33,214 nt of DNA from a virus (lineage: Duplodnaviria; Heunggongvirae; Uroviricota; Caudoviricetes), in the IMG/VR virus record IMGVR_UViG_2537561930_000012; one strand, written 5' to 3'. Every line of letters begins with the position of its first letter. Position 1 is the stretch's first letter. A program made the position numbers and the translations under genes. This document shows, in pieces, positions 5,720 through 13,185 of this stretch. The notes under the pieces were generated by a model. It was given only the letters and a program-made list of their open reading frames with translations, was not told the DNA's origin and searched no databases.

Positions 5720-6182
5720 GTAACAGCAGGCATTACAGCAGCCCTTCACTGAGGGGCTGCGATAATGTGAGGAATAAAAAACCGGCAGGGGAAATCCATT
5801 GAAGATTTGCCGGTGGCAAAAGATGGCCATGCTTTTAACCTTAGTAGCAGAGTTACGGAGTTCAACAACGACCGTCGCCGTTATCTTGCTGAAAGGCGTT
5901 TCAATGATTTTCATCAATTTATTCATCAGCAATGGTGATAATCACTCTCATTTTGGCGGGTCCTTCCGGTGGGGTGGCCTGCCACGGGGCGGGAGCGTCG
6001 CGGAAAAAGGCTAGTTTTTGCATTTCCATGGTGGCGGCAGCATGTTTGGTAATTTATTGATAATTAAAAGTTATTTCTCTTTTCAGCTGTACAATATTTT
6101 TTTCTCCCTGTCATTAGACTCGTTTGCAATTAATTGAAATATATAAATAAACCTGATTTTCACCTGCCAGATGGAGTTGCTT

Positions 6183-6710
6183 ATGTCAAATGTGAGCGGG
6201 ATCGGTGATGCTTATTACTGGAGTGTTTTTAAAATCGCCGAGGCCTTTGGGCTTCACCGGGACACAGTAAAAAAACGGCTCCTCGCGGCCAACACTCCTG
6301 TGGCTGCGACTGTCAGGGGGAACCCCGTTTACGCCCTGCAGCATGTCGGGCCTGCCCTGTTTAGTGTGAAGCATGAGGCAGCAGACTCTGTTCATGATCC
6401 ATCCCGTATGGAGCCGAAAGAGAGAAAGGACTGGTACCAGTCGGAAAATGAAAGGATCAAGTTGGAAAAGGAGCAGCGAAAACTCATCCCCGTTGATGAA
6501 GTAGTCATCGTCTATTCGTCCATGAGAAAGGCTGTCGTCCAGGTTCTGGAGACAATTCCGGATGTTCTTGAACGCGATTGCGCCCTGACTCCTCAGGCCG
6601 TTGGCGTTGTACAGCAGGCCATTGATGACCTGCGATACACTCTTCAGGAAAAATCCTACGAGGCTTGTGCTGCTGAATTAATTCCTGATGAGGAAGGAGA
6701 GAGTCTCTAG
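6183..6710 (+). CDS. Terminase small subunit (Nu1-like, N-terminal HTH)
   Basis: ORF 6171-6710; ATG 6183 has better SD spacing (GGAG at 6173-6176); immediately upstream of the large terminase. Confidence 0.65.
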   Translation: MSNVSGIGDAYYWSVFKIAEAFGLHRDTVKKRLLAANTPVAATVRGNPVYALQHVGPALFSVKHEAADSVHDPSRMEPKERKDWYQSENERIKLEKEQRKLIPVDEVVIVYSSMRKAVVQVLETIPDVLERDCALTPQAVGVVQQAIDDLRYTLQEKSYEACAAELIPDEEGESL

Positions 6711-6718
6711 GAGGAATA

Positions 6719-8818
6719 ATGGGTTTTTCATCAGCCCGAAATTTGGGAAGGGACATATCGGCAGGATTTTCCCCACCACGTCGCATGCCGATTTCGGAGG
6801 CTGTTAAAAAATTCATGCGTGTTCCCAAGGGGGCTGGTAACTCGGTGCCATGGGATCCTGAACTGACACCCTACATCATTGAGCCCATGAACTGCCTGGC
6901 ATCGCGTGAATACGATGCGGTGATTTTTGTTGGTCCTGCGCGAACAGGGAAGACCATTGGTCTGATCGATGGATGGATTGTCTATACCATCGTTTGCGAT
7001 CCTTCGGACATGCTCGTTGTGCAGATGACCGAAGATAAGGCCCGCGAGCATTCAAAAAAGCGCCTCGACAGAACGTTCAGAAGCAGTGCGGCGGTAAAGA
7101 AAAGAATGAGTCCACGTCGTAATGACAATAATGTCCATGATAAGACGTTCAGGGATGGCTCGTTCCTTAAAATTGGTTGGCCCTCGGTCAACATTATGTC
7201 GTCGTCGGATTACCGGTTTGTCGCCTTAACCGATTACGACCGTTTTCCGGAGAATATCGACAGCGAGGGTGATGGTTTCTCCCTGGCCTCAAAACGTACC
7301 ACCACATTTATGTCCGCCGGGATGACTCTGGTGGAGAGCTCGCCGGGACGTGACATCTGCGACAGCAAATGGCGACGTAAGTCGCCTCATGAAGCGCCAC
7401 CGACGACTGGTATTCTTTCCCTTTACAATCGTGGTGACCGCCGCCGCTGGTACTGGCCATGTCCGCACTGCGGTGAATATTTTCAGCCAGCCATGGATGC
7501 CATGACCGGCTACCGTAATGAACCGGATCCCTTTAAAGCCAGTGAGGCGGCGTATCTACTTTGCCCGCACTGCAGCGGCATTATCACTGCGGAGAAAAAG
7601 CGTGAGCTCAATAGTGCAGGAGTCTGGTTGCGTGAAGGTCAGGTCATTGATTGTAACGGCAACGTTTCCGGTGAACCGCGCCGCTCCCGTATCGCCAGTT
7701 TCTGGATGGAAGGGCCAGCTGCTGCGTATCAGACCTGGGCGCAACTGGTTTACAAATTACTGACTGCAGAACAGGAGTATGAAGCGACAGGAAGTGAAGA
7801 AACACTCAGGGCGGTTATCAACACCGACTGGGGATTACCTTATCTTCCCCGCGCCAGCATGGAGCAACGAAAAAGTGAACTGCTTGAGCAGCGGGCAGAG
7901 CCAGTTCCTTCCCGCAGTGTGCCAGATGGCGTTAATTTTCTTGTGGCGACAGTGGATGTGCAGGCGGGACGTCATCGCCGTTTTGTGGTTCAGGTAACGG
8001 GCTATGGCAGCCGTGGCGAACGCTGGATTATTGATCGTTACAACATCACGCAGTCATTGCGCGGTGACAGCGACGGGGAGAGCCAGCGAATTGATCCGGC
8101 CAGCTATCCGGAAGACTGGGATGTCCTGCTGACGGATGTTTTTCATAAAAGCTGGCCGCTGGCCTCCGATCCTTCTCAACAAATGCGACTTATGGCAATG
8201 GCGGTGGACTCCGGCGGTGAAGACGGGGTCACTGATAATGCCTATAAATTCTGGCGTCGTTGCCGTCGTGATGGCCTTGGTAAACGTATTTACCTGTTTA
8301 AGGGCGACAGCATCCGGCGCGCAAAACTGATCAGCCGTACATTCCCTGATAACACCGGACGAACGGGCCGACGGGCGCAGGCCGCAGGTGATGTGCCGCT
8401 CTGGCTTCTTCAGACGGATGCCCTGAAAGACCGGGTGAATAACGCGTTATGGCGTGACTCGCCAGGTCCCGGCTATGTGCATTTCCCTGACTGGCTGGGG
8501 AGCTGGTTTTACGACGAACTGACGTATGAAGAGCGGAGCAGTGACGGGAAATGGAGTAAGCCGGGTCGCGGTGCCAACGAAGCTTTTGACCTGATGGTGT
8601 ATGCCGAGGCTCTGGTCATTCTGCATGGATACGAAAAGATCCGCTGGCCGGATGCACCGGAGTGGGCGAGCCGGGAAACCTGGCTGGAGTGTGTCCCGGA
8701 CAGTACCGAACCGTCACCCTCACCGGAACCGGTATCCACGCCTGTTAAAAAACAAAAACGGAAGAAAACAGTAACTGACGATGTTAACCCCTGGCTGACT
8801 TCCGGAGGATGGTTATGA
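6719..8818 (+). CDS. A: Terminase large subunit (lambda gpA family)
   Basis: 699-aa ORF; Walker A-like GPARTGKT, CPHCGEYF and CPHCSG zinc-ribbon-like motifs; SD AGGAGG upstream. Confidence 0.9.
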   Translation: MGFSSARNLGRDISAGFSPPRRMPISEAVKKFMRVPKGAGNSVPWDPELTPYIIEPMNCLASREYDAVIFVGPARTGKTIGLIDGWIVYTIVCDPSDMLVVQMTEDKAREHSKKRLDRTFRSSAAVKKRMSPRRNDNNVHDKTFRDGSFLKIGWPSVNIMSSSDYRFVALTDYDRFPENIDSEGDGFSLASKRTTTFMSAGMTLVESSPGRDICDSKWRRKSPHEAPPTTGILSLYNRGDRRRWYWPCPHCGEYFQPAMDAMTGYRNEPDPFKASEAAYLLCPHCSGIITAEKKRELNSAGVWLREGQVIDCNGNVSGEPRRSRIASFWMEGPAAAYQTWAQLVYKLLTAEQEYEATGSEETLRAVINTDWGLPYLPRASMEQRKSELLEQRAEPVPSRSVPDGVNFLVATVDVQAGRHRRFVVQVTGYGSRGERWIIDRYNITQSLRGDSDGESQRIDPASYPEDWDVLLTDVFHKSWPLASDPSQQMRLMAMAVDSGGEDGVTDNAYKFWRRCRRDGLGKRIYLFKGDSIRRAKLISRTFPDNTGRTGRRAQAAGDVPLWLLQTDALKDRVNNALWRDSPGPGYVHFPDWLGSWFYDELTYEERSSDGKWSKPGRGANEAFDLMVYAEALVILHGYEKIRWPDAPEWASRETWLECVPDSTEPSPSPEPVSTPVKKQKRKKTVTDDVNPWLTSGGWL

Positions 8819-9027
8819 ATCAGAATGATATTGAAGCCATGATTCAGCGTTATACGGAAGCTGAAATGGCGGTGCTGGACGGAAAATCCGTCACTTTTAA
8901 TGGTCAGCAGATGACCATGGAAAACTTATCTGAGATCCGGCAGGGGCGGCAGGAGTGGGAGCGCCGCCTTGCGGCTCTGATTACACGACGACGTGGGCAT
9001 CCCGGGTACCGGCTGGCGAGGTTCTGA
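8815..9027 (+). CDS. W: Head-tail connector / head completion protein gpW-like
   Basis: About 70-aa ORF ending RRRGHPGYRLARF; start overlaps terminase stop (ATGA) and its stop overlaps the portal start. Confidence 0.7.
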   Translation: MNQNDIEAMIQRYTEAEMAVLDGKSVTFNGQQMTMENLSEIRQGRQEWERRLAALITRRRGHPGYRLARF

Positions 9028-10502
9028 TGGCAATTCTTGATGATGTGATTGGCGTTTTTTCACCAGGATGGAAAGCGGCAAGGCTGCGTTCCCGTGCGGT
9101 GATCCAGGCTTATGAGGCCGTAAAAACGACGCGGACACACAAAGCCCGACGGGAGAACCGAACTGCCGACCAGTTAAGCCAGTACGGGGCCGTGTCGTTA
9201 CGTGAGCAGGCCCGTTACCTTGATAACAACCACGATCTGGTCATTGGTGTATTTGACAAGCTGGAAGAACGGGTGGTGGGGAAAAACGGGATTATTGTCG
9301 AGCCACATCCGGTATTACGCAATGGGGCCATTGCCCGTGACCTGGCTGCGGAGATACGTACCCGATGGAGTGAATGGTCTGTCAGTCCGGAGGTCACCGG
9401 GCAGTTTACCCGTCCGATGCTGGAACGTCTGATGCTGCGTACCTGGCTGCGCGATGGTGAGGTGTTTGCCCAGATGGTTTCCGGGCGCATAAACAGCCTG
9501 ACGCCTTCTGCCGGTGTTCATTTCTGGCTGGAGGCGCTCGAGCCGGACTTTATTCCCATGACCAGTGATGAGAGCAACAGGCTGAATCAGGGCGTGTTTG
9601 TTGATGACTGGGGGCGTCCCGAAAAATATCTGGTGTATAAAAGTCGTCCTGTATCCGGACGGCAGATGGAAACCAAAGAAGTGGATGCAGAGCGAATGCT
9701 GCATCTTAAATTTGTTCGCCGTCTGCACCAGATGCGCGGGACGTCTTTATTGTCCGGTGTGCTGATCCGCCTCAGCGCCCTGAAAGAGTATGAAGATTCT
9801 GAGCTGACTGCAGCAAGGGTCGCCGCTGCTCTGGGGATGTACATCCGGAAAGGCGACGGACAGAGCTATGAAACGGATGGTAATGACAGCAAGGAGAATG
9901 AACGCGAGCTTACCATTCAGCCAGGCATTATTTACGACGATCTGAAACCCGGCGAAGAAATCGGAATGGTGAAGTCGGATCGCCCAAATCCTAACCTTGA
10001 AACTTTTCGTAATGCTCAGTTGCGTGCCGTGGCGGCGGGCAGTCGTCTGAGTTTTTCCAGTACAGCGCGCAACTATAACGGCACTTACAGCGCCCAGCGT
10101 CAGGAGCTGGTTGAATCCACTGATGGCTACCTGATCCTGCAGGACTGGTTTATTGGTGCCGTCACCCGCCCGATGTATCGTGCCTGGCTGAAACAGGCTG
10201 TGGCATCCGGTGTTATCAGGCTACCCCGCGATCTTGACCGTTCTTCACTGTATACCGCGGTGTATTCCGGACCGGTGATGCCGTGGATTGACCCTGTTAA
10301 GGAGGCTGAGGCCTGGAAAATCCAGATTCGTGGTGGAGCGGCGACAGAATCAGACTGGGTACGTGCAGGTGGTCGTAATCCGGATGATGTCAAACGTCGG
10401 CGCAAGGCCGAAATTGATGAAAACCGCAAGCTGGACCTGGTATTTGATACCGATCCGGCCAGTGATAAAGGAGGCAGCAGTGCCGCAACGAAACGACAGT
10501 AG
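9027..10502 (+). CDS. B: Portal protein (lambda gpB family)
   Basis: ATG at 9027 overlapping gpW stop; about 491 aa; position between W and head protease/capsid. Confidence 0.85.
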   Translation: MAILDDVIGVFSPGWKAARLRSRAVIQAYEAVKTTRTHKARRENRTADQLSQYGAVSLREQARYLDNNHDLVIGVFDKLEERVVGKNGIIVEPHPVLRNGAIARDLAAEIRTRWSEWSVSPEVTGQFTRPMLERLMLRTWLRDGEVFAQMVSGRINSLTPSAGVHFWLEALEPDFIPMTSDESNRLNQGVFVDDWGRPEKYLVYKSRPVSGRQMETKEVDAERMLHLKFVRRLHQMRGTSLLSGVLIRLSALKEYEDSELTAARVAAALGMYIRKGDGQSYETDGNDSKENERELTIQPGIIYDDLKPGEEIGMVKSDRPNPNLETFRNAQLRAVAAGSRLSFSSTARNYNGTYSAQRQELVESTDGYLILQDWFIGAVTRPMYRAWLKQAVASGVIRLPRDLDRSSLYTAVYSGPVMPWIDPVKEAEAWKIQIRGGAATESDWVRAGGRNPDDVKRRRKAEIDENRKLDLVFDTDPASDKGGSSAATKRQ

Positions 10503-12507
10503 CCGCAGTACACCGACGACCAGTCCGAAGAATAATTCCTGGTTCAGGATGCAGGCAGGTCACCAGAGTGACGCGGATATTTATATTTATGACGAGATTG
10601 GTTTCTGGGGTGTTACAGCGAAGCAGTTTATCAGTGATCTGAATGCACTGGGCGATATCACCCACATTAATCTCCATATTAATTCACCGGGTGGCGATGT
10701 CTTTGAAGGCATCGCCATTTTTAATGCACTGAAAACACATGGTGCGTCCATTACCGTTTATGTCGACGGTGTGGCGGCGTCAATGGCGTCGGTCATTGCG
10801 ATGGTGGGAAACCCGGTCATTATGCCGGAAAACTCCTTCATGATGATTCATAAACCATTTGGCTTTACGGGCGGTGATGCGGAGGACATGCGCACCTATG
10901 CCGACCTGCTCGATAAAGTTGAGGCGGTTCTGTTACCCGCTTATGCACAGAAAACCGGGAAAACCACCGATGAAATTGCTGCCATGCTGGCGGATGAGAC
11001 CTGGATGTCCGGTGCCGAATGTCTGGCACATGGATTTGCTGATCAGGTGACGCCAGCCGTTAAGGCAATGGCATGTATTCAGTCAAAACGTACAGAGGAA
11101 TTTAAAAAGATGCCGGAATCCATTCGAAACATGATTACTCCGCCACGCAACAGTGCTCCACGCGTACAGGATGATGAACCTGCAGCCTCCCGGACGCCAG
11201 TGCAGGCAGCAGCACCCGTGGTGGATGAAAACAGTATCCGTGCGCAGGTACTGGCAGAGCAAAAAGCGCGTGTAAACGGTATTAATGATCTGTTTGCCAT
11301 GTTTGGCGGGCGTTATCAGACGCTGCAGGCTCAGTGTCTTGCCGATCCTGAATGTTCGCTGGAGCAGGCCCGCGAAAAGCTGTTGAACGAGATGGGGCGC
11401 GAGTCCACGCCATCCAATAAAAATACACCGGCTCATATTTATGCCGGTAACGGTAATTTTGTGGGGGACGGGATCCGCCAGGCGCTGATGGCGCGTGCCG
11501 GATTTGAAAAAACCGAACGTGATAATGTCTACAACGGGATGACCCTGCGTGAATATGCCCGTATGTCACTGACTGAACGGGGTATTGGGGTTTCCGGTTA
11601 TAACCCGATGCAGATGGTCGGTGCGGCGTTCACACACAGTACGTCTGACTTCGGTAATATTCTGCTGGATGTTGCGAACAAAGCCATTCTGCAGGGCTGG
11701 GAAGATGCTCCTGAAACCTATGAACAGTGGACGCGGAAAGGTCAGTTGTCTGATTTTAAAATTGCCCATCGTGTGGGTATGGGGGGCTTCAGTGCTCTGC
11801 GTCAGGTGCGTGAAGGGGCGGAATATAAATACGTCACCACCGGAGATAAACAGGCCACTATTGCACTGGCGACCTATGGCGAGCTGTTCAGTATCACCCG
11901 TCAGGCCATTATCAATGATGATCTGAATATGCTGACCGATGTCCCGATGAAACTGGGCCGTGCGGCGAAATCCACTATTGCCGATCTGGTTTATGCCATT
12001 CTGACGTCTAACCCGAAAATCTCCACAGATAATGTAAGTCTGTTCGATAAAGCGAAACATGCAAACGTACTGGAGAGCGCTGCAATGGACGTGGCATCGC
12101 TGGATAAAGCCCGCCAGTTGATGCGCGTTCAGAAAGAGGGGGAGCGTCATCTGAATATTCGTCCTGCGTTCGTACTGGTACCGACGGCGATGGAGTCTGT
12201 TGCTAACCAGGTCATTCGCTCCTCAAGTGTCAAGGGGGCTGACATTAACGCCGGTATTATTAACCCGGTGAAAGATTTTGCGACCGTTATTGCAGAGCCT
12301 CGTCTTGATGATAACAGCCAGACCACCTTCTACCTGGCTGCGTCAAAAGGCTCCGATACGATTGAAGTGGCTTATCTCAACGGTGTGGATACGCCATATA
12401 TTGATCAGATGGAGGGCTTCAGTGTGGATGGCGTGACAACGAAAGTGCGTATTGACGCCGGTGTCGCGCCAGTTGATCACCGCGGTCTGGTGAAATGTAC
12501 GGCGTAA
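10480..12507 (+). CDS. Prohead protease (ClpP/S49-like) fused to major capsid protein
   Basis: GTG start at 10480 with SD AAAGGAGG five nt upstream (alternative ATG 10549); N-terminal protease-like region (NSPGGDVFEGIAIFNAL...SMASVIAM), long C-terminal capsid-like domain; terminator follows. Confidence 0.7.
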   Translation: MPQRNDSSRSTPTTSPKNNSWFRMQAGHQSDADIYIYDEIGFWGVTAKQFISDLNALGDITHINLHINSPGGDVFEGIAIFNALKTHGASITVYVDGVAASMASVIAMVGNPVIMPENSFMMIHKPFGFTGGDAEDMRTYADLLDKVEAVLLPAYAQKTGKTTDEIAAMLADETWMSGAECLAHGFADQVTPAVKAMACIQSKRTEEFKKMPESIRNMITPPRNSAPRVQDDEPAASRTPVQAAAPVVDENSIRAQVLAEQKARVNGINDLFAMFGGRYQTLQAQCLADPECSLEQAREKLLNEMGRESTPSNKNTPAHIYAGNGNFVGDGIRQALMARAGFEKTERDNVYNGMTLREYARMSLTERGIGVSGYNPMQMVGAAFTHSTSDFGNILLDVANKAILQGWEDAPETYEQWTRKGQLSDFKIAHRVGMGGFSALRQVREGAEYKYVTTGDKQATIALATYGELFSITRQAIINDDLNMLTDVPMKLGRAAKSTIADLVYAILTSNPKISTDNVSLFDKAKHANVLESAAMDVASLDKARQLMRVQKEGERHLNIRPAFVLVPTAMESVANQVIRSSSVKGADINAGIINPVKDFATVIAEPRLDDNSQTTFYLAASKGSDTIEVAYLNGVDTPYIDQMEGFSVDGVTTKVRIDAGVAPVDHRGLVKCTA

Positions 12508-12530: not shown

Positions 12531-12550
12531 GGCCCGTAAGGGCTTTTTTT
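12531..12550 (+). terminator. Intrinsic terminator/attenuator after the capsid gene
   Basis: gccc-gtaa-gggc hairpin followed by T7. Confidence 0.4.
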
Positions 12551-12593: not shown

Positions 12594-12917
12594 ATGGCAA
12601 AGAATTTTGTAGAAGAAGGAAAAACGGTGGCGATTGTTGCCAGTGCAGCCATCAGCAGCGGAGATCTGGTGCTGGTGGGGGATGTTTTTGCGGTGGCGCT
12701 GACCGATATTCCACAGGGTGAAACAGGCGACGGCATGACCGAAGGTGTGTTTATGCTGCCTAAGCTGAAAACGGATGACATGAAAACGGGTAAGAAGGTT
12801 TATCTGAAGTCCGGAAAAGTTCAGTTGACTAACAGCGGCTCTGATCCGCTGGTCGGGGTTGTCTGGGCAGATGCCGGAACCAGTGCAGAAGAAGTGCCGG
12901 TAAAACTCAATGTCTGA
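12594..12917 (+). CDS. Small head-associated protein (DUF2190-like; decoration or head-completion candidate)
   Basis: 107-aa ORF from ATG 12594 between capsid and FII-like genes. Confidence 0.45.
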   Translation: MAKNFVEEGKTVAIVASAAISSGDLVLVGDVFAVALTDIPQGETGDGMTEGVFMLPKLKTDDMKTGKKVYLKSGKVQLTNSGSDPLVGVVWADAGTSAEEVPVKLNV

Positions 12918-13185
12918 TCCCTTTTCCCGGCTGGCAGCGCGTATGGATGCGATCACGGTCAGAAAGATGGGAAAGACAGCCTCGATTAATGATGTCGATA
13001 TGACTGTGATCCCGGGAGAAACACTGGCAGAGCTGAATGCTCTGTCCGGACCTGCGGTCTCTCTGGTGGTGTTTTCTTCGGGATACCGCCCACGGCGCGG
13101 GGATCGCGTTGTTTATGACGGACAACAATGGACGGTCACACGGCATGAACGTTTTAACGGTAAGCCAATGATCTTTATTGAGTAA
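12910..13185 (+). CDS. Head-tail joining protein (lambda gpFII-like)
   Basis: 91-aa ORF; C-terminal RRGDRVVYDGQQWTV resembles the FII RRGD motif; directly upstream of gpZ. Confidence 0.55.
   Translation: MSDPFSRLAARMDAITVRKMGKTASINDVDMTVIPGETLAELNALSGPAVSLVVFSSGYRPRRGDRVVYDGQQWTVTRHERFNGKPMIFIE

What the first reader, a model, noticed from the sequence alone, without database searches (positions are those of the whole stretch)
10480..12507. Single 675-aa head gene combining a ClpP/S49-like prohead protease with the major capsid protein
Lambda has separate C, Nu3, D and E genes. Here one long ORF starts with a protease-like domain and continues into a capsid-like C-terminal domain, followed by a terminator. 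The best start is a GTG with a strong SD inside the 3' end of the portal gene. This fused head architecture is worth confirming.
Basis: partly seen in the sequence, partly recalled or inferred. Interest (0 to 1): 0.45.

Follow-up and report, generated by a model that had tools for sequence, protein, structure and literature searches.

The report
Known fused protease–scaffold–capsid phage gene
This is a well-known, already-annotated type of prophage head gene that joins a ClpP-like maturation protease, a scaffold-like linker and the major capsid protein in one reading frame (the Gifsy-2 "tripartite capsid gene"). The one new lead is strong sequence evidence for a second, internal start that would also make a protease-free scaffold-plus-capsid protein.

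Summary
A 675-codon ORF runs from GTG 10480 to 12507, with AAGGAGG 5 nt upstream, a 23-nt overlap with the portal gene and a terminator downstream.

It contains a ClpP-family (S14) protease domain (residues 31-191; Ser101/His124/Asp188) and a Mu-gpT/HK97-type capsid domain (375-672).

It is not new:
- NCBI has a curated model for exactly this fusion (NF045540; 986 bits against a cutoff of 475).
- RefSeq annotates identical coordinates in an identical E. coli genome.
- Similar DNA occurs in 2136 of 5426 complete E. coli genomes.
- The protein is at least 99% identical in cultured phages (Tritos, mEp460, cdtI) and 69% identical to the Gifsy-2 tripartite capsid gene (Effantin et al. 2010).
- A hidden stop is excluded: 65 of 67 divergent loci keep one frame, and the other two are a contig-end cut and a truncated copy.

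New lead: an invariant in-frame ATG (Met211, nt 11110) sits at the protease/scaffold junction. AGGA lies 10 nt upstream and is held at synonymous sites. The site is the most open, most synonymously constrained spot in the gene. Non-fused relatives lack both signals, but a second fusion family with a different protease has them. This suggests a nested 465-aa scaffold-capsid product, like lambda C/Nu3. It is untested experimentally.

Both AlphaFold attempts failed.

The parts
9027..10502 (+). Portal gene (lambda-family portal). Its last 23 nt overlap the start of the fused head gene.
   Evidence: Pfam Phage_portal_2 E=2e-82; TIGR01539 portal_lambda 459 bits; PGAP 'phage portal protein'.
10468..10474 (+). 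Shine-Dalgarno AAGGAGG for the full-length product, 5 nt before the GTG.
   Evidence: Sequence. Duplex dG -11.6 with the 16S 3' end. The same AAAGGAGG-N5-GTG occurs in mEp213 and many Enterobacterales homologs.
10480..12507 (+). Fused head gene, 675 aa, 73.4 kDa: ClpP-like prohead protease, scaffold-like middle and major capsid protein.
   Evidence: ORF. NF045540 scaf_prot_MCP1 985.8 bits, cutoff 475, model positions 2-651 of 652. phrog_133 1202 bits. PGAP CDS with the same coordinates, WP_024168613.1. 69% identity to Gifsy-2.
10570..11052 (+). ClpP-family (MEROPS S14) protease domain, residues 31-191. Catalytic Ser101 (10780-10782), His124 (10849-10851), Asp188 (11041-11043).
   Evidence: Pfam CLP_protease E=2e-36. 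NF045542 Clp_rel_HeadMat 216.6 bits, cutoff 120. Triad aligned to ClpP 1y7o and 6hwm. Conservation across 69 homologs: Ser 68/69, His 69/69, Asp 64/69 (Asn in 5).
11095..11099 (+). Proposed internal Shine-Dalgarno GAGGA (codons Glu206-Glu207), 10 nt before ATG 11110.
   Evidence: AGGA is present in 45 of 46 de-duplicated homologs (GGAG in the other). Codon 206 is always xAG although the residue varies E/Q/K (45/45 G-ending, 43% expected, control columns 16-74%). This region is the gene-wide minimum of synonymous variability.
11110..12507 (+). Proposed nested in-frame product from Met211: scaffold-like segment plus capsid protein, 465 aa, 50.7 kDa, without protease (inferred, not demonstrated).
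   Evidence: ATG is invariant in 69 of 69 fused homologs. Non-fused relatives have ATG/CTG/CTT/GTC/GTT/GTT/GTG there and no AGGA. It is the most open 61-nt window of the gene (z=2.68 in the window; mean z=2.19, 46/46 positive). The same SD+ATG at the junction occurs in a second fusion family.
11137..11223 (+). Pro/Ala/Gln-rich, poorly conserved linker (residues ~220-248) that tolerates in-frame indels.
   Evidence: Alignments with Gifsy-2, mEp213 and F10 show only in-frame indels here. No secondary structure and low confidence in both models.
11227..11394 (+). Conserved helical segment (residues ~250-305), the likely scaffold/delta-domain-like core.
   Evidence: This is the only non-protease region with pLDDT of 67 to 85 in both AlphaFold runs, predicted as three helices (250-273, 280-288, 294-305). 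Conserved across homologs. The function is inferred.
11602..12495 (+). Major capsid protein domain (residues 375-672), Mu-gpT/HK97-type.
   Evidence: Pfam Phage_capsid_4 E=5e-55 and Mu-like_gpT E=4e-8. A profile of 46 homologs hits solved capsid chains 8rkc/8rkx (E=3e-10) and 9jod (E=3.5e-8).
12531..12550 (+). Intrinsic-terminator-like hairpin plus T-run after the capsid gene.
   Evidence: Scan; sequence; rho-independent terminator annotated at the equivalent site in mEp213.
12594..12917 (+). Separate head decoration (cement) gene, 107 aa.
   Evidence: Pfam Phage_cement_2 E=3e-21; phrog_122 'head decoration' E=2e-47; same position in Gifsy-2, F10 and mEp213.

Best explanation
This is the Gifsy-2-type 'tripartite capsid gene' of a cdtI/mEp460/Tritos-like lambdoid prophage.

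Shown by sequence: one ORF encodes (i) an N-terminal ClpP-family serine protease with an intact Ser101-His124-Asp188 triad, (ii) a middle part made of a Pro/Ala/Gln-rich linker and a conserved helical segment, and (iii) a C-terminal Mu-gpT/HK97-type major capsid protein. Translation of the full-length 73-kDa protein starts at GTG 10480, behind a strong SD that lies inside the end of the portal gene.

Inferred from the Gifsy-2, HK97 and lambda literature: the capsid domains build the procapsid shell with the N-terminal parts pointing inward. The middle part acts like a scaffold or delta domain. The tethered protease then digests the internal parts and frees the roughly 33-kDa shell domain. After DNA packaging and expansion, the separately encoded cement protein (12594-12917) binds the shell.

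Inferred here from comparative sequence analysis, about 65% likely: a second, in-frame initiation at ATG 11110 (Met211, SD GAGGA 10 nt upstream) also produces a 50.7-kDa scaffold-plus-capsid protein without protease. The gene would then be nested like lambda C/Nu3, and the protease-to-shell-subunit ratio would be set by two start sites rather than fixed at 1:1.
For: Identity and architecture: (domains, curated fusion model, triad). Same coordinates and product name in RefSeq. Prevalence: 2136 of 5426 complete E. coli genomes. At least 99% identity in cultured phages and 69.5% identity to Gifsy-2 over 97% of the length. [quoted passage not shown] The same portal / fusion / decoration gene order occurs in Gifsy-2, F10 and mEp213. 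Continuous frame in 65 of 67 loci at 51 to 99% identity, with only in-frame indels in the linker. Capsid domain related to solved Mu-gpT-type capsids.

Nested start: Met211-Pro212 invariant in 69 of 69. AGGA fixed at the nucleotide level while residue 206 varies, and 45 of 45 G-ending codons including 14 AT-rich genomes. Least-structured site in all 46 homologs, and the most open of 45 internal NTG codons in the window. Gene-wide minimum of synonymous variability at residues 196-221. Both signals absent in non-fused relatives. An SD+ATG is present at the junction of an independent fusion family with a different protease: Met in 17 of 18, and an SD-like motif in 15 of those 17. Nested protease/scaffold starts are an established scheme (lambda annotation; HFTV1 ribosome profiling, bioRxiv 10.64898/2026.09.13.751334).
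Against: No experimental data on this gene's products were available here. The primary Gifsy-2 paper could not be read, so I cannot say whether it reports one or two precursor species or already discusses an internal start. Both AlphaFold runs were poor (mean pLDDT 35.5 and 41.2), so the fold of the capsid and middle parts rests on profile matches only. The scaffold role of residues 211-374 is inferred. For the nested start: the internal SD is weak (dG about -6) with a rather long 10-nt spacer. A related hydrophobic-Pro motif exists at the protein level in non-fused proteases, so part of the conservation is protein-level. The lambda Nu3 start, a proven nested start, shows neither signal in my metrics, so they are not general diagnostics. 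The sequences are phylogenetically related, so the naive P of 1e-18 overstates independence.
Confidence: 0.9

Rival explanations
1. Single polyprotein only. Every shell subunit is made as the full 675-aa protease-scaffold-capsid chain (1:1 stoichiometry). The conserved AGGA-N10-ATG at residue 211 has another cause, such as a protein motif at the end of the protease domain, a ribosome pause that aids co-translational folding, or a fossil of the ancestral downstream gene's start.
For: This is the published description of the Gifsy-2 gene as far as I can tell from citing papers. A related '(F/Y)xx(V/L/M)P' motif is present in non-fused ClpP-like prohead proteases. The internal SD is weak (-6.0). 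The lambda Nu3 control shows that my metrics do not track a proven nested start. By my own rough estimate, not a tool result, about 415 copies of a 41-kDa internal part would fill only about 40% of a T=7 procapsid, so 1:1 is physically possible.
Against: A protein motif does not explain why codon 206 is xAG in 45 of 45 sequences while the residue changes among E, Q and K. It does not explain why Met is invariant only in fused genes while Leu or Val serves in non-fused ones. It also does not explain why an unrelated-protease fusion family with non-conserved flanking residues keeps SD+ATG at the same junction. A fossil start would not be held under the strongest synonymous constraint in the gene across sequences 51% identical.
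Confidence: 0.3
2. Artefact. Two separate genes (protease and capsid) appear fused because of a sequencing error or a prophage-inactivating mutation that removed a stop.
For: None specific to this locus. Database entries do contain artefactual longer fusions of this gene with the portal gene.
Against: The same uninterrupted frame is found in 2010 complete E. coli genomes at 80% coverage or more, in cultured infectious phages (Tritos, mEp460, cdtI, phi458, Ayreon), in Gifsy-2 and Pseudomonas F10, and in 65 of 67 loci from different species. Linker indels are all in frame. A curated NCBIfam model covers the protein end to end.
Confidence: 0.01
3. The true start of the long product is the downstream ATG at 10549 (Met24), not GTG 10480.
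For: ATG is a better initiator than GTG. The NCBIfam and Pfam models begin to align only around residue 31-32.
Against: Met24 is not conserved (Ile in 29 of 69). No SD-like site with dG of -6 or stronger precedes it (it is not in the listing). GTG/ATG with a GGAGG-type SD 18-24 codons upstream of the conserved Ser-Trp motif is positionally conserved across homologs. PGAP chooses 10480. phrog_133 aligns from residue 15.
Confidence: 0.05
4. The protease part is a lambda gpC-like S49 (SppA-type) peptidase, as the reader's 'ClpP/S49-like' wording allows.
For: A weak hit to TIGR00706 SppA_dom (E=1.3e-4). Lambda gpC is annotated as an S49 family peptidase. From my own knowledge, both families share the ClpP/crotonase-type fold.
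Against: SppA scores 21.7 bits against a cutoff of 155, while CLP_protease scores 126 bits and Clp_rel_HeadMat 216.6 bits against a cutoff of 120. More than 100 solved ClpP chains match, and the Ser-His-Asp triad aligns with ClpP.
Confidence: 0.03

Closest known systems
Salmonella phage Gifsy-2 tripartite capsid gene (STM1034.3n in NC_010393; Effantin et al. 2010, Virology 402:355)
   Same: 69% identity over 97% of the length, and above 90% in the capsid part. The order is the same: ClpP-like protease, middle segment, capsid domain. The neighbours are the same: portal upstream with an overlapping start, DUF2190/cement-type decoration gene downstream, then gpZ/gpU/gpV-like tail genes.
   Different: The N-terminal 30 residues and the Pro/Ala/Gln-rich linker differ, with several in-frame indels. 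The start codon is GTG here and ATG in Gifsy-2. Nothing functional is known to differ.
NCBIfam NF045540 'ClpP-like prohead protease/major capsid protein fusion protein' (scaf_prot_MCP1); PHROG 133
   Same: End-to-end match far above the curated cutoff (985.8 against 475). RefSeq gives the 100% identical gene this very name.
   Different: None; it is a typical member.
E. coli phages mEp460, cdtI, Tritos, phi458, Ayreon, HannyBb
   Same: At least 99.0% protein identity. 71 to 79% of window 1-25000 aligns at 95 to 97% DNA identity to these and related phages.
   Different: Their records call the gene by various names: 'major capsid protein', 'head maturation protease', 'protease/scaffold protein', 'Nu3', 'preconnector protease C'. 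None annotates a nested product.
Nested protease/scaffold genes: lambda C/Nu3 (also Mu I/Z, HSV-1 UL26/UL26.5, archaeal virus HFTV1 gp17/gp17.5)
   Same: A proposed in-frame internal start at the end of the protease domain, so that the scaffolding part is also made without the protease (lambda annotation; HFTV1 ribosome profiling).
   Different: In those systems the capsid protein is a separate gene. Here the nested product would be scaffold fused to capsid protein. The lambda protease is S49-type. The nested start here is inferred only. Mu I/Z and HSV-1 are partly from my own knowledge; HSV-1 and lambda are named in the preprint read.
HK97 gp4 protease and gp5 (delta domain plus capsid protein)
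   Same: The predicted nested product (N-terminal helical assembly segment removed by the protease, plus an HK97-type shell domain) would be organised like gp5 (inference and established knowledge).
   Different: In HK97 the protease is a separate gene of a different family and there is no decoration protein. Homology of residues 211-374 to the delta domain was not tested.
NF045541 scaf_prot_MCP2 / phrog_4523 fusion family (for example Ralstonia phage YO135_4)
   Same: The scaffold-plus-capsid module is homologous from residue ~209-220 onward (401.9 bits to NF045541, below its cutoff of 525). It has the same SD+ATG (Met-Pro) at the junction.
   Different: The N-terminal ~200-aa protease is different and has no Pfam hit. 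The window protein is not a member of this family.

Membership tests
NCBIfam NF045540 ClpP-like prohead protease/major capsid protein fusion (Gifsy-2 type) | Whole-protein score above the curated cutoff with end-to-end model coverage | tested here: met
   985.8 bits against a cutoff of 475; residues 32-674 align to model positions 2-651 of 652.
NCBIfam NF045540 ClpP-like prohead protease/major capsid protein fusion (Gifsy-2 type) | N-terminal ClpP-related head maturation protease domain with catalytic Ser-His(-Asp) | tested here: met
   NF045542 216.6 bits (cutoff 120); Pfam CLP_protease E=2e-36. Ser101, His124 and Asp188 align with the ClpP triad motifs in 1y7o and 6hwm and are conserved in 68, 69 and 64 of 69 homologs.
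NCBIfam NF045540 ClpP-like prohead protease/major capsid protein fusion (Gifsy-2 type) | C-terminal HK97-fold (Mu gpT-like) major capsid domain in the same reading frame | tested here: met
   Met at the sequence level: Phage_capsid_4 E=5e-55, Mu-like_gpT E=4e-8; profile hits to solved capsid chains 8rkc/8rkx and 9jod. The 3-D fold itself could not be confirmed because the AlphaFold models were unusable.
NCBIfam NF045540 ClpP-like prohead protease/major capsid protein fusion (Gifsy-2 type) | Position in a head module: after terminase and portal, before the decoration and head-tail joining genes | tested here: met
   Window order is gpA-type terminase, small ORF, lambda-family portal, fusion, cement protein, Gifsy-2 family (PF13856) protein, gpZ, gpU, gpV. 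The same order occurs in Gifsy-2, F10 and mEp213.
Gifsy-2-type capsid assembly pathway (T=7 shell, proteolytic removal of protease and scaffold, trimeric decoration protein) | Processed mature capsid protein, T=7 geometry, decoration trimers on the virion | not testable with these tools
   Requires particles (SDS-PAGE/MS, cryo-EM). Only the genes for the parts are shown here. The Gifsy-2 decoration trimer is cited from PMC8538268.
MEROPS S49 / lambda gpC-type prohead protease | Match to SppA/S49 family models above threshold | tested here: not met
   TIGR00706 SppA_dom scores 21.7 bits against a cutoff of 155.45. ClpP/S14 models score far higher.
NCBIfam NF045541 prohead protease/major capsid fusion, type 2 | Whole-protein score above the curated cutoff, including the N-terminal protease part | tested here: not met
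   401.9 bits against a cutoff of 525. Only residues 220-672 align (model positions 176-630); the protease part does not.
Nested protease/scaffold genes (lambda C/Nu3 type) | In-frame internal start codon with a ribosome-binding site at the protease/scaffold boundary | tested here: met
   The sequence signals are present. ATG 11110 is invariant in 69 of 69. AGGA 10 nt upstream is held at synonymous sites. The site is the most open and most synonymously constrained in the gene. The signals are absent in non-fused relatives and present in a second fusion family.
Nested protease/scaffold genes (lambda C/Nu3 type) | A separate shorter protein actually produced from the internal start | not testable with these tools
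   Needs start-site ribosome profiling, toeprinting, N-terminomics or western blots. No such data were found in the searchable literature.

The most novel reading that the evidence does not exclude
The 'tripartite' protease-scaffold-capsid genes are really nested genes. Besides the full-length chain, ribosomes would start at a conserved internal SD+ATG at the protease/scaffold junction (here GAGGA at 11095-11099 and ATG at 11110) and make an HK97-gp5-like scaffold-capsid protein without protease. The two start sites, not the fusion, would then set how many protease domains enter each procapsid. The same signal in a second fusion family with an unrelated protease suggests this is a general design rule of such fusions. 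It would extend the lambda C/Nu3, HSV-1 UL26/26.5 and HFTV1 gp17/17.5 scheme to genes that also contain the capsid protein. I found no report of this in the searchable literature, but I could not read the primary Gifsy-2 paper.
Probability: 0.6. Interest if true: 0.45.

Novelty: already known. Interest (0 to 1): 0.25.

Why it matters
The fused head gene itself changes nothing. It is a common, curated and experimentally studied architecture, and this copy is identical to RefSeq entries. The practical value lies in annotation: phage records label this one gene as 'capsid', 'protease', 'scaffold', 'Nu3' or 'C', and the three-part reading reconciles these names.

The internal-start lead would matter modestly if confirmed. 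It would explain how a fused gene avoids being locked into one protease per shell subunit. It would add a hidden 465-aa product to roughly 2000 complete E. coli genomes' prophages and to many phages. It would also give phage-assembly researchers a simple, mutable handle (one ATG and one synonymous codon) for tuning protease dosage in procapsids.

Tried and rejected
1. Structure prediction. Two AlphaFold2 jobs were run on the full protein, with 20 sequences (75-96% identity) and with 40 sequences from three clades (53-96% identity). Mean pLDDT was 35.5 and 41.2, and the capsid part was below 50. I therefore ran no fold search, since the matches would be meaningless.

2. Reading Effantin et al. 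2010 by PubMed id: the paper is not held.

3. Viral-contig scan with the four-protein alignment: all 80 loci were 98-100% identical and useless for conservation tests. The second homolog search, with a Haemophilus query, returned only 90-96% relatives of that query.

4. The 458- and 463-aa database proteins that start exactly at the internal Met (P0262, P0306) looked like natural split genes. They are contig-edge artefacts, with genes starting 22-35 nt from the contig end. Rejected as evidence.

5. Search for unfused scaffold-plus-capsid relatives starting at the equivalent Met: none were found among the best 120 profile hits.

6. Lambda C/Nu3 as a positive control for the SD and accessibility metrics: the Nu3 start shows neither signal (SD -2.7, z=-0.17). 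The metrics are therefore not general detectors of nested starts.

7. The 1159-aa portal+protease+capsid proteins as a possible larger natural fusion: the frame shifts occur at different positions in different entries, so these are indels or assembly errors. Rejected.

8. ATG 10549 as the true start: not conserved.

9. Literature searches for a reported internal start in these genes found nothing relevant.

Full report
OBSERVATION

The + strand carries an uninterrupted frame from 10288 to the TAA at 12505-12507. From the GTG at 10480 it encodes 675 residues (73.4 kDa). The GTG is preceded by AAGGAGG (10468-10474) with a 5-nt spacer. It lies 23 nt inside the 3' end of the lambda-family portal gene (9027-10502). 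A hairpin GGCCC-GTAA-GGGCT followed by seven T lies at 12531-12550.

WHAT IT IS

Three profile libraries agree.
- Pfam finds CLP_protease at residues 31-191 (E=2e-36) and Phage_capsid_4 at 375-672 (E=5e-55), with a weaker Mu-like_gpT match.
- PHROGs gives phrog_133 at 1202 bits over residues 15-675.
- NCBIfam has a curated model for exactly this architecture: NF045540 'ClpP-like prohead protease/major capsid protein fusion protein'. It matches end to end at 985.8 bits against a cutoff of 475.

The protease is ClpP/S14-type. More than 100 solved ClpP chains match. The alignment to 1y7o and 6hwm places Ser101 (AASM), His124 (MIHKP) and Asp188 (GFADQ) on the ClpP catalytic motifs. The SppA/S49 model, the family of lambda gpC, reaches only 21.7 bits against a cutoff of 155, so 'S49-like' is not supported. 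A profile built from 46 homologs of the C-terminal 465 residues hits solved Mu-gpT-type capsid chains (8rkc/8rkx at E=3e-10; 9jod at E=3.5e-8).

IT IS ALREADY KNOWN

- A 100% identical E. coli chromosome in RefSeq carries a CDS with exactly these coordinates, named with the NCBIfam product name (WP_024168613.1).
- Similar DNA is found in 2136 of 5426 complete E. coli genomes, and 2010 of them hold a match covering at least 80% of the 2.5-kb query.
- The protein is at least 99.0% identical in cultured phages Tritos, PhiR55_1, phi458, mEp460, Ayreon, HannyBb and cdtI.
- It is 73-77% identical in Stx phages and mEp213/LLS, 69.5% in Gifsy-2 and about 56% in Pseudomonas phages F10 and MD8, always over essentially the full length.
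[quoted passage not shown] 2010)' (PMC12315714). [quoted passage not shown]
- Another paper lists Gifsy-2 among phages with a trimeric decoration protein at the 3-fold axes (PMC8538268).
- 'Major capsid and protease fusion protein' is also a routine annotation in actinobacteriophages.
- About 71-79% of window 1-25000 aligns at 95-97% identity to cdtI, Tritos, mEp460 and related phages.

NOT AN ARTEFACT

Of 67 loci from different species (51-99% identity; Enterobacterales, Pasteurellaceae, Shewanella, Pseudomonas), 65 have one continuous frame of at least 600 codons across both domains. Of the other two, one is cut by a contig end and one is a truncated copy. Indels relative to Gifsy-2, mEp213 and F10 are all in frame and lie in the N-terminal tail and the linkers.

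The start call is also supported. A GTG or ATG with a GGAGG-type SD lies 18-24 codons upstream of the conserved Ser-Trp motif in most homologs, and at up to about 40 codons in some (GTG in 21, ATG in 25 of 46). The alternative ATG at 10549 is Ile in 29 of 69 sequences.

ANATOMY AND LIKELY MECHANISM

The chain has five stretches:
- residues 1-30: a variable basic tail;
- 31-195: the protease;
- about 196-219: the end of the protease region, with the conserved motif KR-x-EEF-xx-MP;
- about 220-248: a Pro/Ala/Gln-rich, poorly conserved linker;
- about 250-305: three conserved helices, the only non-protease part that reached pLDDT 67-85 in both AlphaFold runs;
- about 306-326: a second loose stretch, followed by the capsid protein.

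The downstream gene (12594-12917) is a Phage_cement_2 / phrog_122 head decoration protein. It occupies the same place in Gifsy-2, F10 and mEp213.

From this, and from established knowledge of HK97, lambda and Gifsy-2, I infer the following. The capsid domains form the procapsid with the N-terminal parts inside. The middle part works as a scaffold or delta-like domain. The tethered ClpP-like protease removes the internal parts. The cement protein then binds the expanded shell. These steps are inferred; none was tested here.

A NEW LEAD: A NESTED INTERNAL START

An in-frame ATG at 11110 (Met211) lies exactly at the protease/scaffold boundary, with GAGGA at 11095-11099, 10 nt upstream. Seven observations bear on it.

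1. Met211-Pro212 is invariant in all 69 fused homologs.

2. After de-duplication at 90% (46 sequences), the nucleotides AGGA are present at the same distance in 45, with GGAG in the other. Residue 206 varies among Glu, Gln and Lys, but its codon is always xAG. That is 45 of 45 G-ending codons against 43% expected from gene-wide usage. The range over 20 control Glu/Gln/Lys columns is 16-74%. The 45 include 14 AT-rich Pasteurellaceae, Shewanella and Moellerella sequences in which G-ending codons make up only 16-31%.

3. The 61-nt window centred on this ATG is the least structured part of the gene. Mean z is +2.19 over 46 homologs, all 46 are positive, and local A+T is 14 points above the gene average. 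In the window itself z=2.68, and it is the most open of 45 internal in-frame NTG codons.

4. Of 405 scored columns, the five sliding windows with the lowest synonymous variability all lie within residues 196-221.

5. Relatives in which the protease (or protease plus scaffold) is a separate gene carry a related '(F/Y)xx-hydrophobic-Pro' motif. There the hydrophobic residue is Met once, Leu twice and Val four times (ATG, CTG, CTT, GTC, GTT, GTT, GTG), and no AGGA precedes it. The Met and the AGGA are therefore specific to the fused genes.

6. A second fusion family (NF045541 / phrog_4523) shares only the scaffold-plus-capsid module, from residue ~209-220 onward, and has a different N-terminal protease. 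In Ralstonia phage YO135_4 its junction reads agAGGAAaacaccATGCCT (SD -8.0), the strongest SD-linked internal start codon of that gene. Among 18 de-duplicated members (38-100% identity), 17 have Met at the junction. Of those 17, 15 have an AGGA/GGAG-type motif about 7-10 nt upstream, although the flanking residues are not conserved. Mean accessibility z is +1.48.

7. Nested in-frame scaffold starts inside protease genes are an established scheme. Lambda C/Nu3 is annotated as such. A 2026 preprint demonstrates one by ribosome profiling in the archaeal virus HFTV1 and cites lambda and HSV-1.

The simplest reading is that ribosomes also initiate at 11110 and make a 465-aa, 50.7-kDa scaffold-plus-capsid protein organised like HK97 gp5. 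The number of protease domains per procapsid would then be set by two start sites.

Caveats:
- The SD is weak (-6.0) with a long spacer.
- Part of the conservation is at the protein level.
- The sequences are related, so the naive product probability (1e-18) overstates independence.
- The proven lambda Nu3 start shows neither signal in my metrics.
- No experimental data were available.
- I could not read the Gifsy-2 paper, so I cannot exclude that this has already been discussed there.

I put the probability at about 0.6-0.65.

DEAD ENDS

- Both AlphaFold runs failed (mean pLDDT 35.5 and 41.2), so no fold search was made.
- Two database proteins that begin exactly at the internal Met are contig-edge artefacts.
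- The roughly 1159-aa portal+protease+capsid entries result from frame shifts at different positions in the portal 3' end.
- No unfused scaffold-capsid relatives appeared among the top profile hits.

VERDICT

The observation and the interpretation are correct, but the feature is ordinary and already curated. It is a typical member of the Gifsy-2-type ClpP protease / scaffold / capsid fusion family. Interest for the finding as stated is low. The internal-start evidence raises it slightly because it is a concrete, cheaply testable hypothesis about how such fusions control protease dosage.

Noticed in passing
window 10288-10502 (3' end of the portal gene); proteins P0005, P0008, P0043 and others: Public databases hold a dozen or more singleton proteins of about 1135-1159 aa that join portal, ClpP and capsid domains. 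The frame switch lies at different positions in different entries: within the 23-nt overlap in P0005, and about 60 codons earlier in P0008 and P0043. This is possible because the fusion gene's frame is open from 10288. They look like independent indels or assembly errors, not a real larger fusion.
   Followed up: partly
window 12910-13185: This 91-aa gene is named 'DNA breaking-rejoining protein' by PGAP, and Pfam PF13856 'Gifsy-2' describes it as 'ATP-binding sugar transporter from pro-phage'. Its position after the decoration gene, a weak Phage_attach hit and the Tritos label 'Head completion protein Hc1' suggest a head-tail joining protein instead. The database names look misleading.
   Followed up: no
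window 10870-10890 (codons Gly131-Met137): A second conserved SD-like stretch (gcGGAGGAc) lies directly against the conserved Met137 codon inside the protease domain (mean duplex dG -5.5 over 42 homologs). Its 1-nt spacing makes it an unlikely start. It probably follows from the conserved GGDAEDM peptide.
   Followed up: partly
window ~5987: The linear genomes of phages cdtI and Tritos begin at window position 5987 in the alignments, so the cos site and left genome end of this prophage type probably lie there, just upstream of the ORF at 6171-6710 and the large terminase gene (6719-8818).
   Followed up: no
proteins P0018, P0019, P0068, P0080, P0084, P0085: Database entries join most of this fusion protein to terminase, tape-measure, tail protein L or tail fibre domains (727-1027 aa). 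They are probably prophage deletions or assembly chimeras and were not examined.
   Followed up: no
loci L155-L159 (Cupriavidus, Azospirillum, Geminicoccus) and L161, L163 (Firmicutes): ClpP-like prohead proteases occur in three gene layouts: protease alone (open frame ~255 codons), protease plus helical scaffold (open frame ~365-435 codons) followed by a separate capsid gene, and the full three-part fusion. This looks like a natural series of fusion states.
   Followed up: partly
phage records: The same 99%-identical gene is labelled 'Major Capsid Protein', 'head maturation protease', 'putative protease/scaffold protein', 'head-tail preconnector protein Nu3', 'head-tail preconnector protease C' and even 'terminase protein' in different GenBank phage records. 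This is an annotation inconsistency worth harmonising.
   Followed up: no
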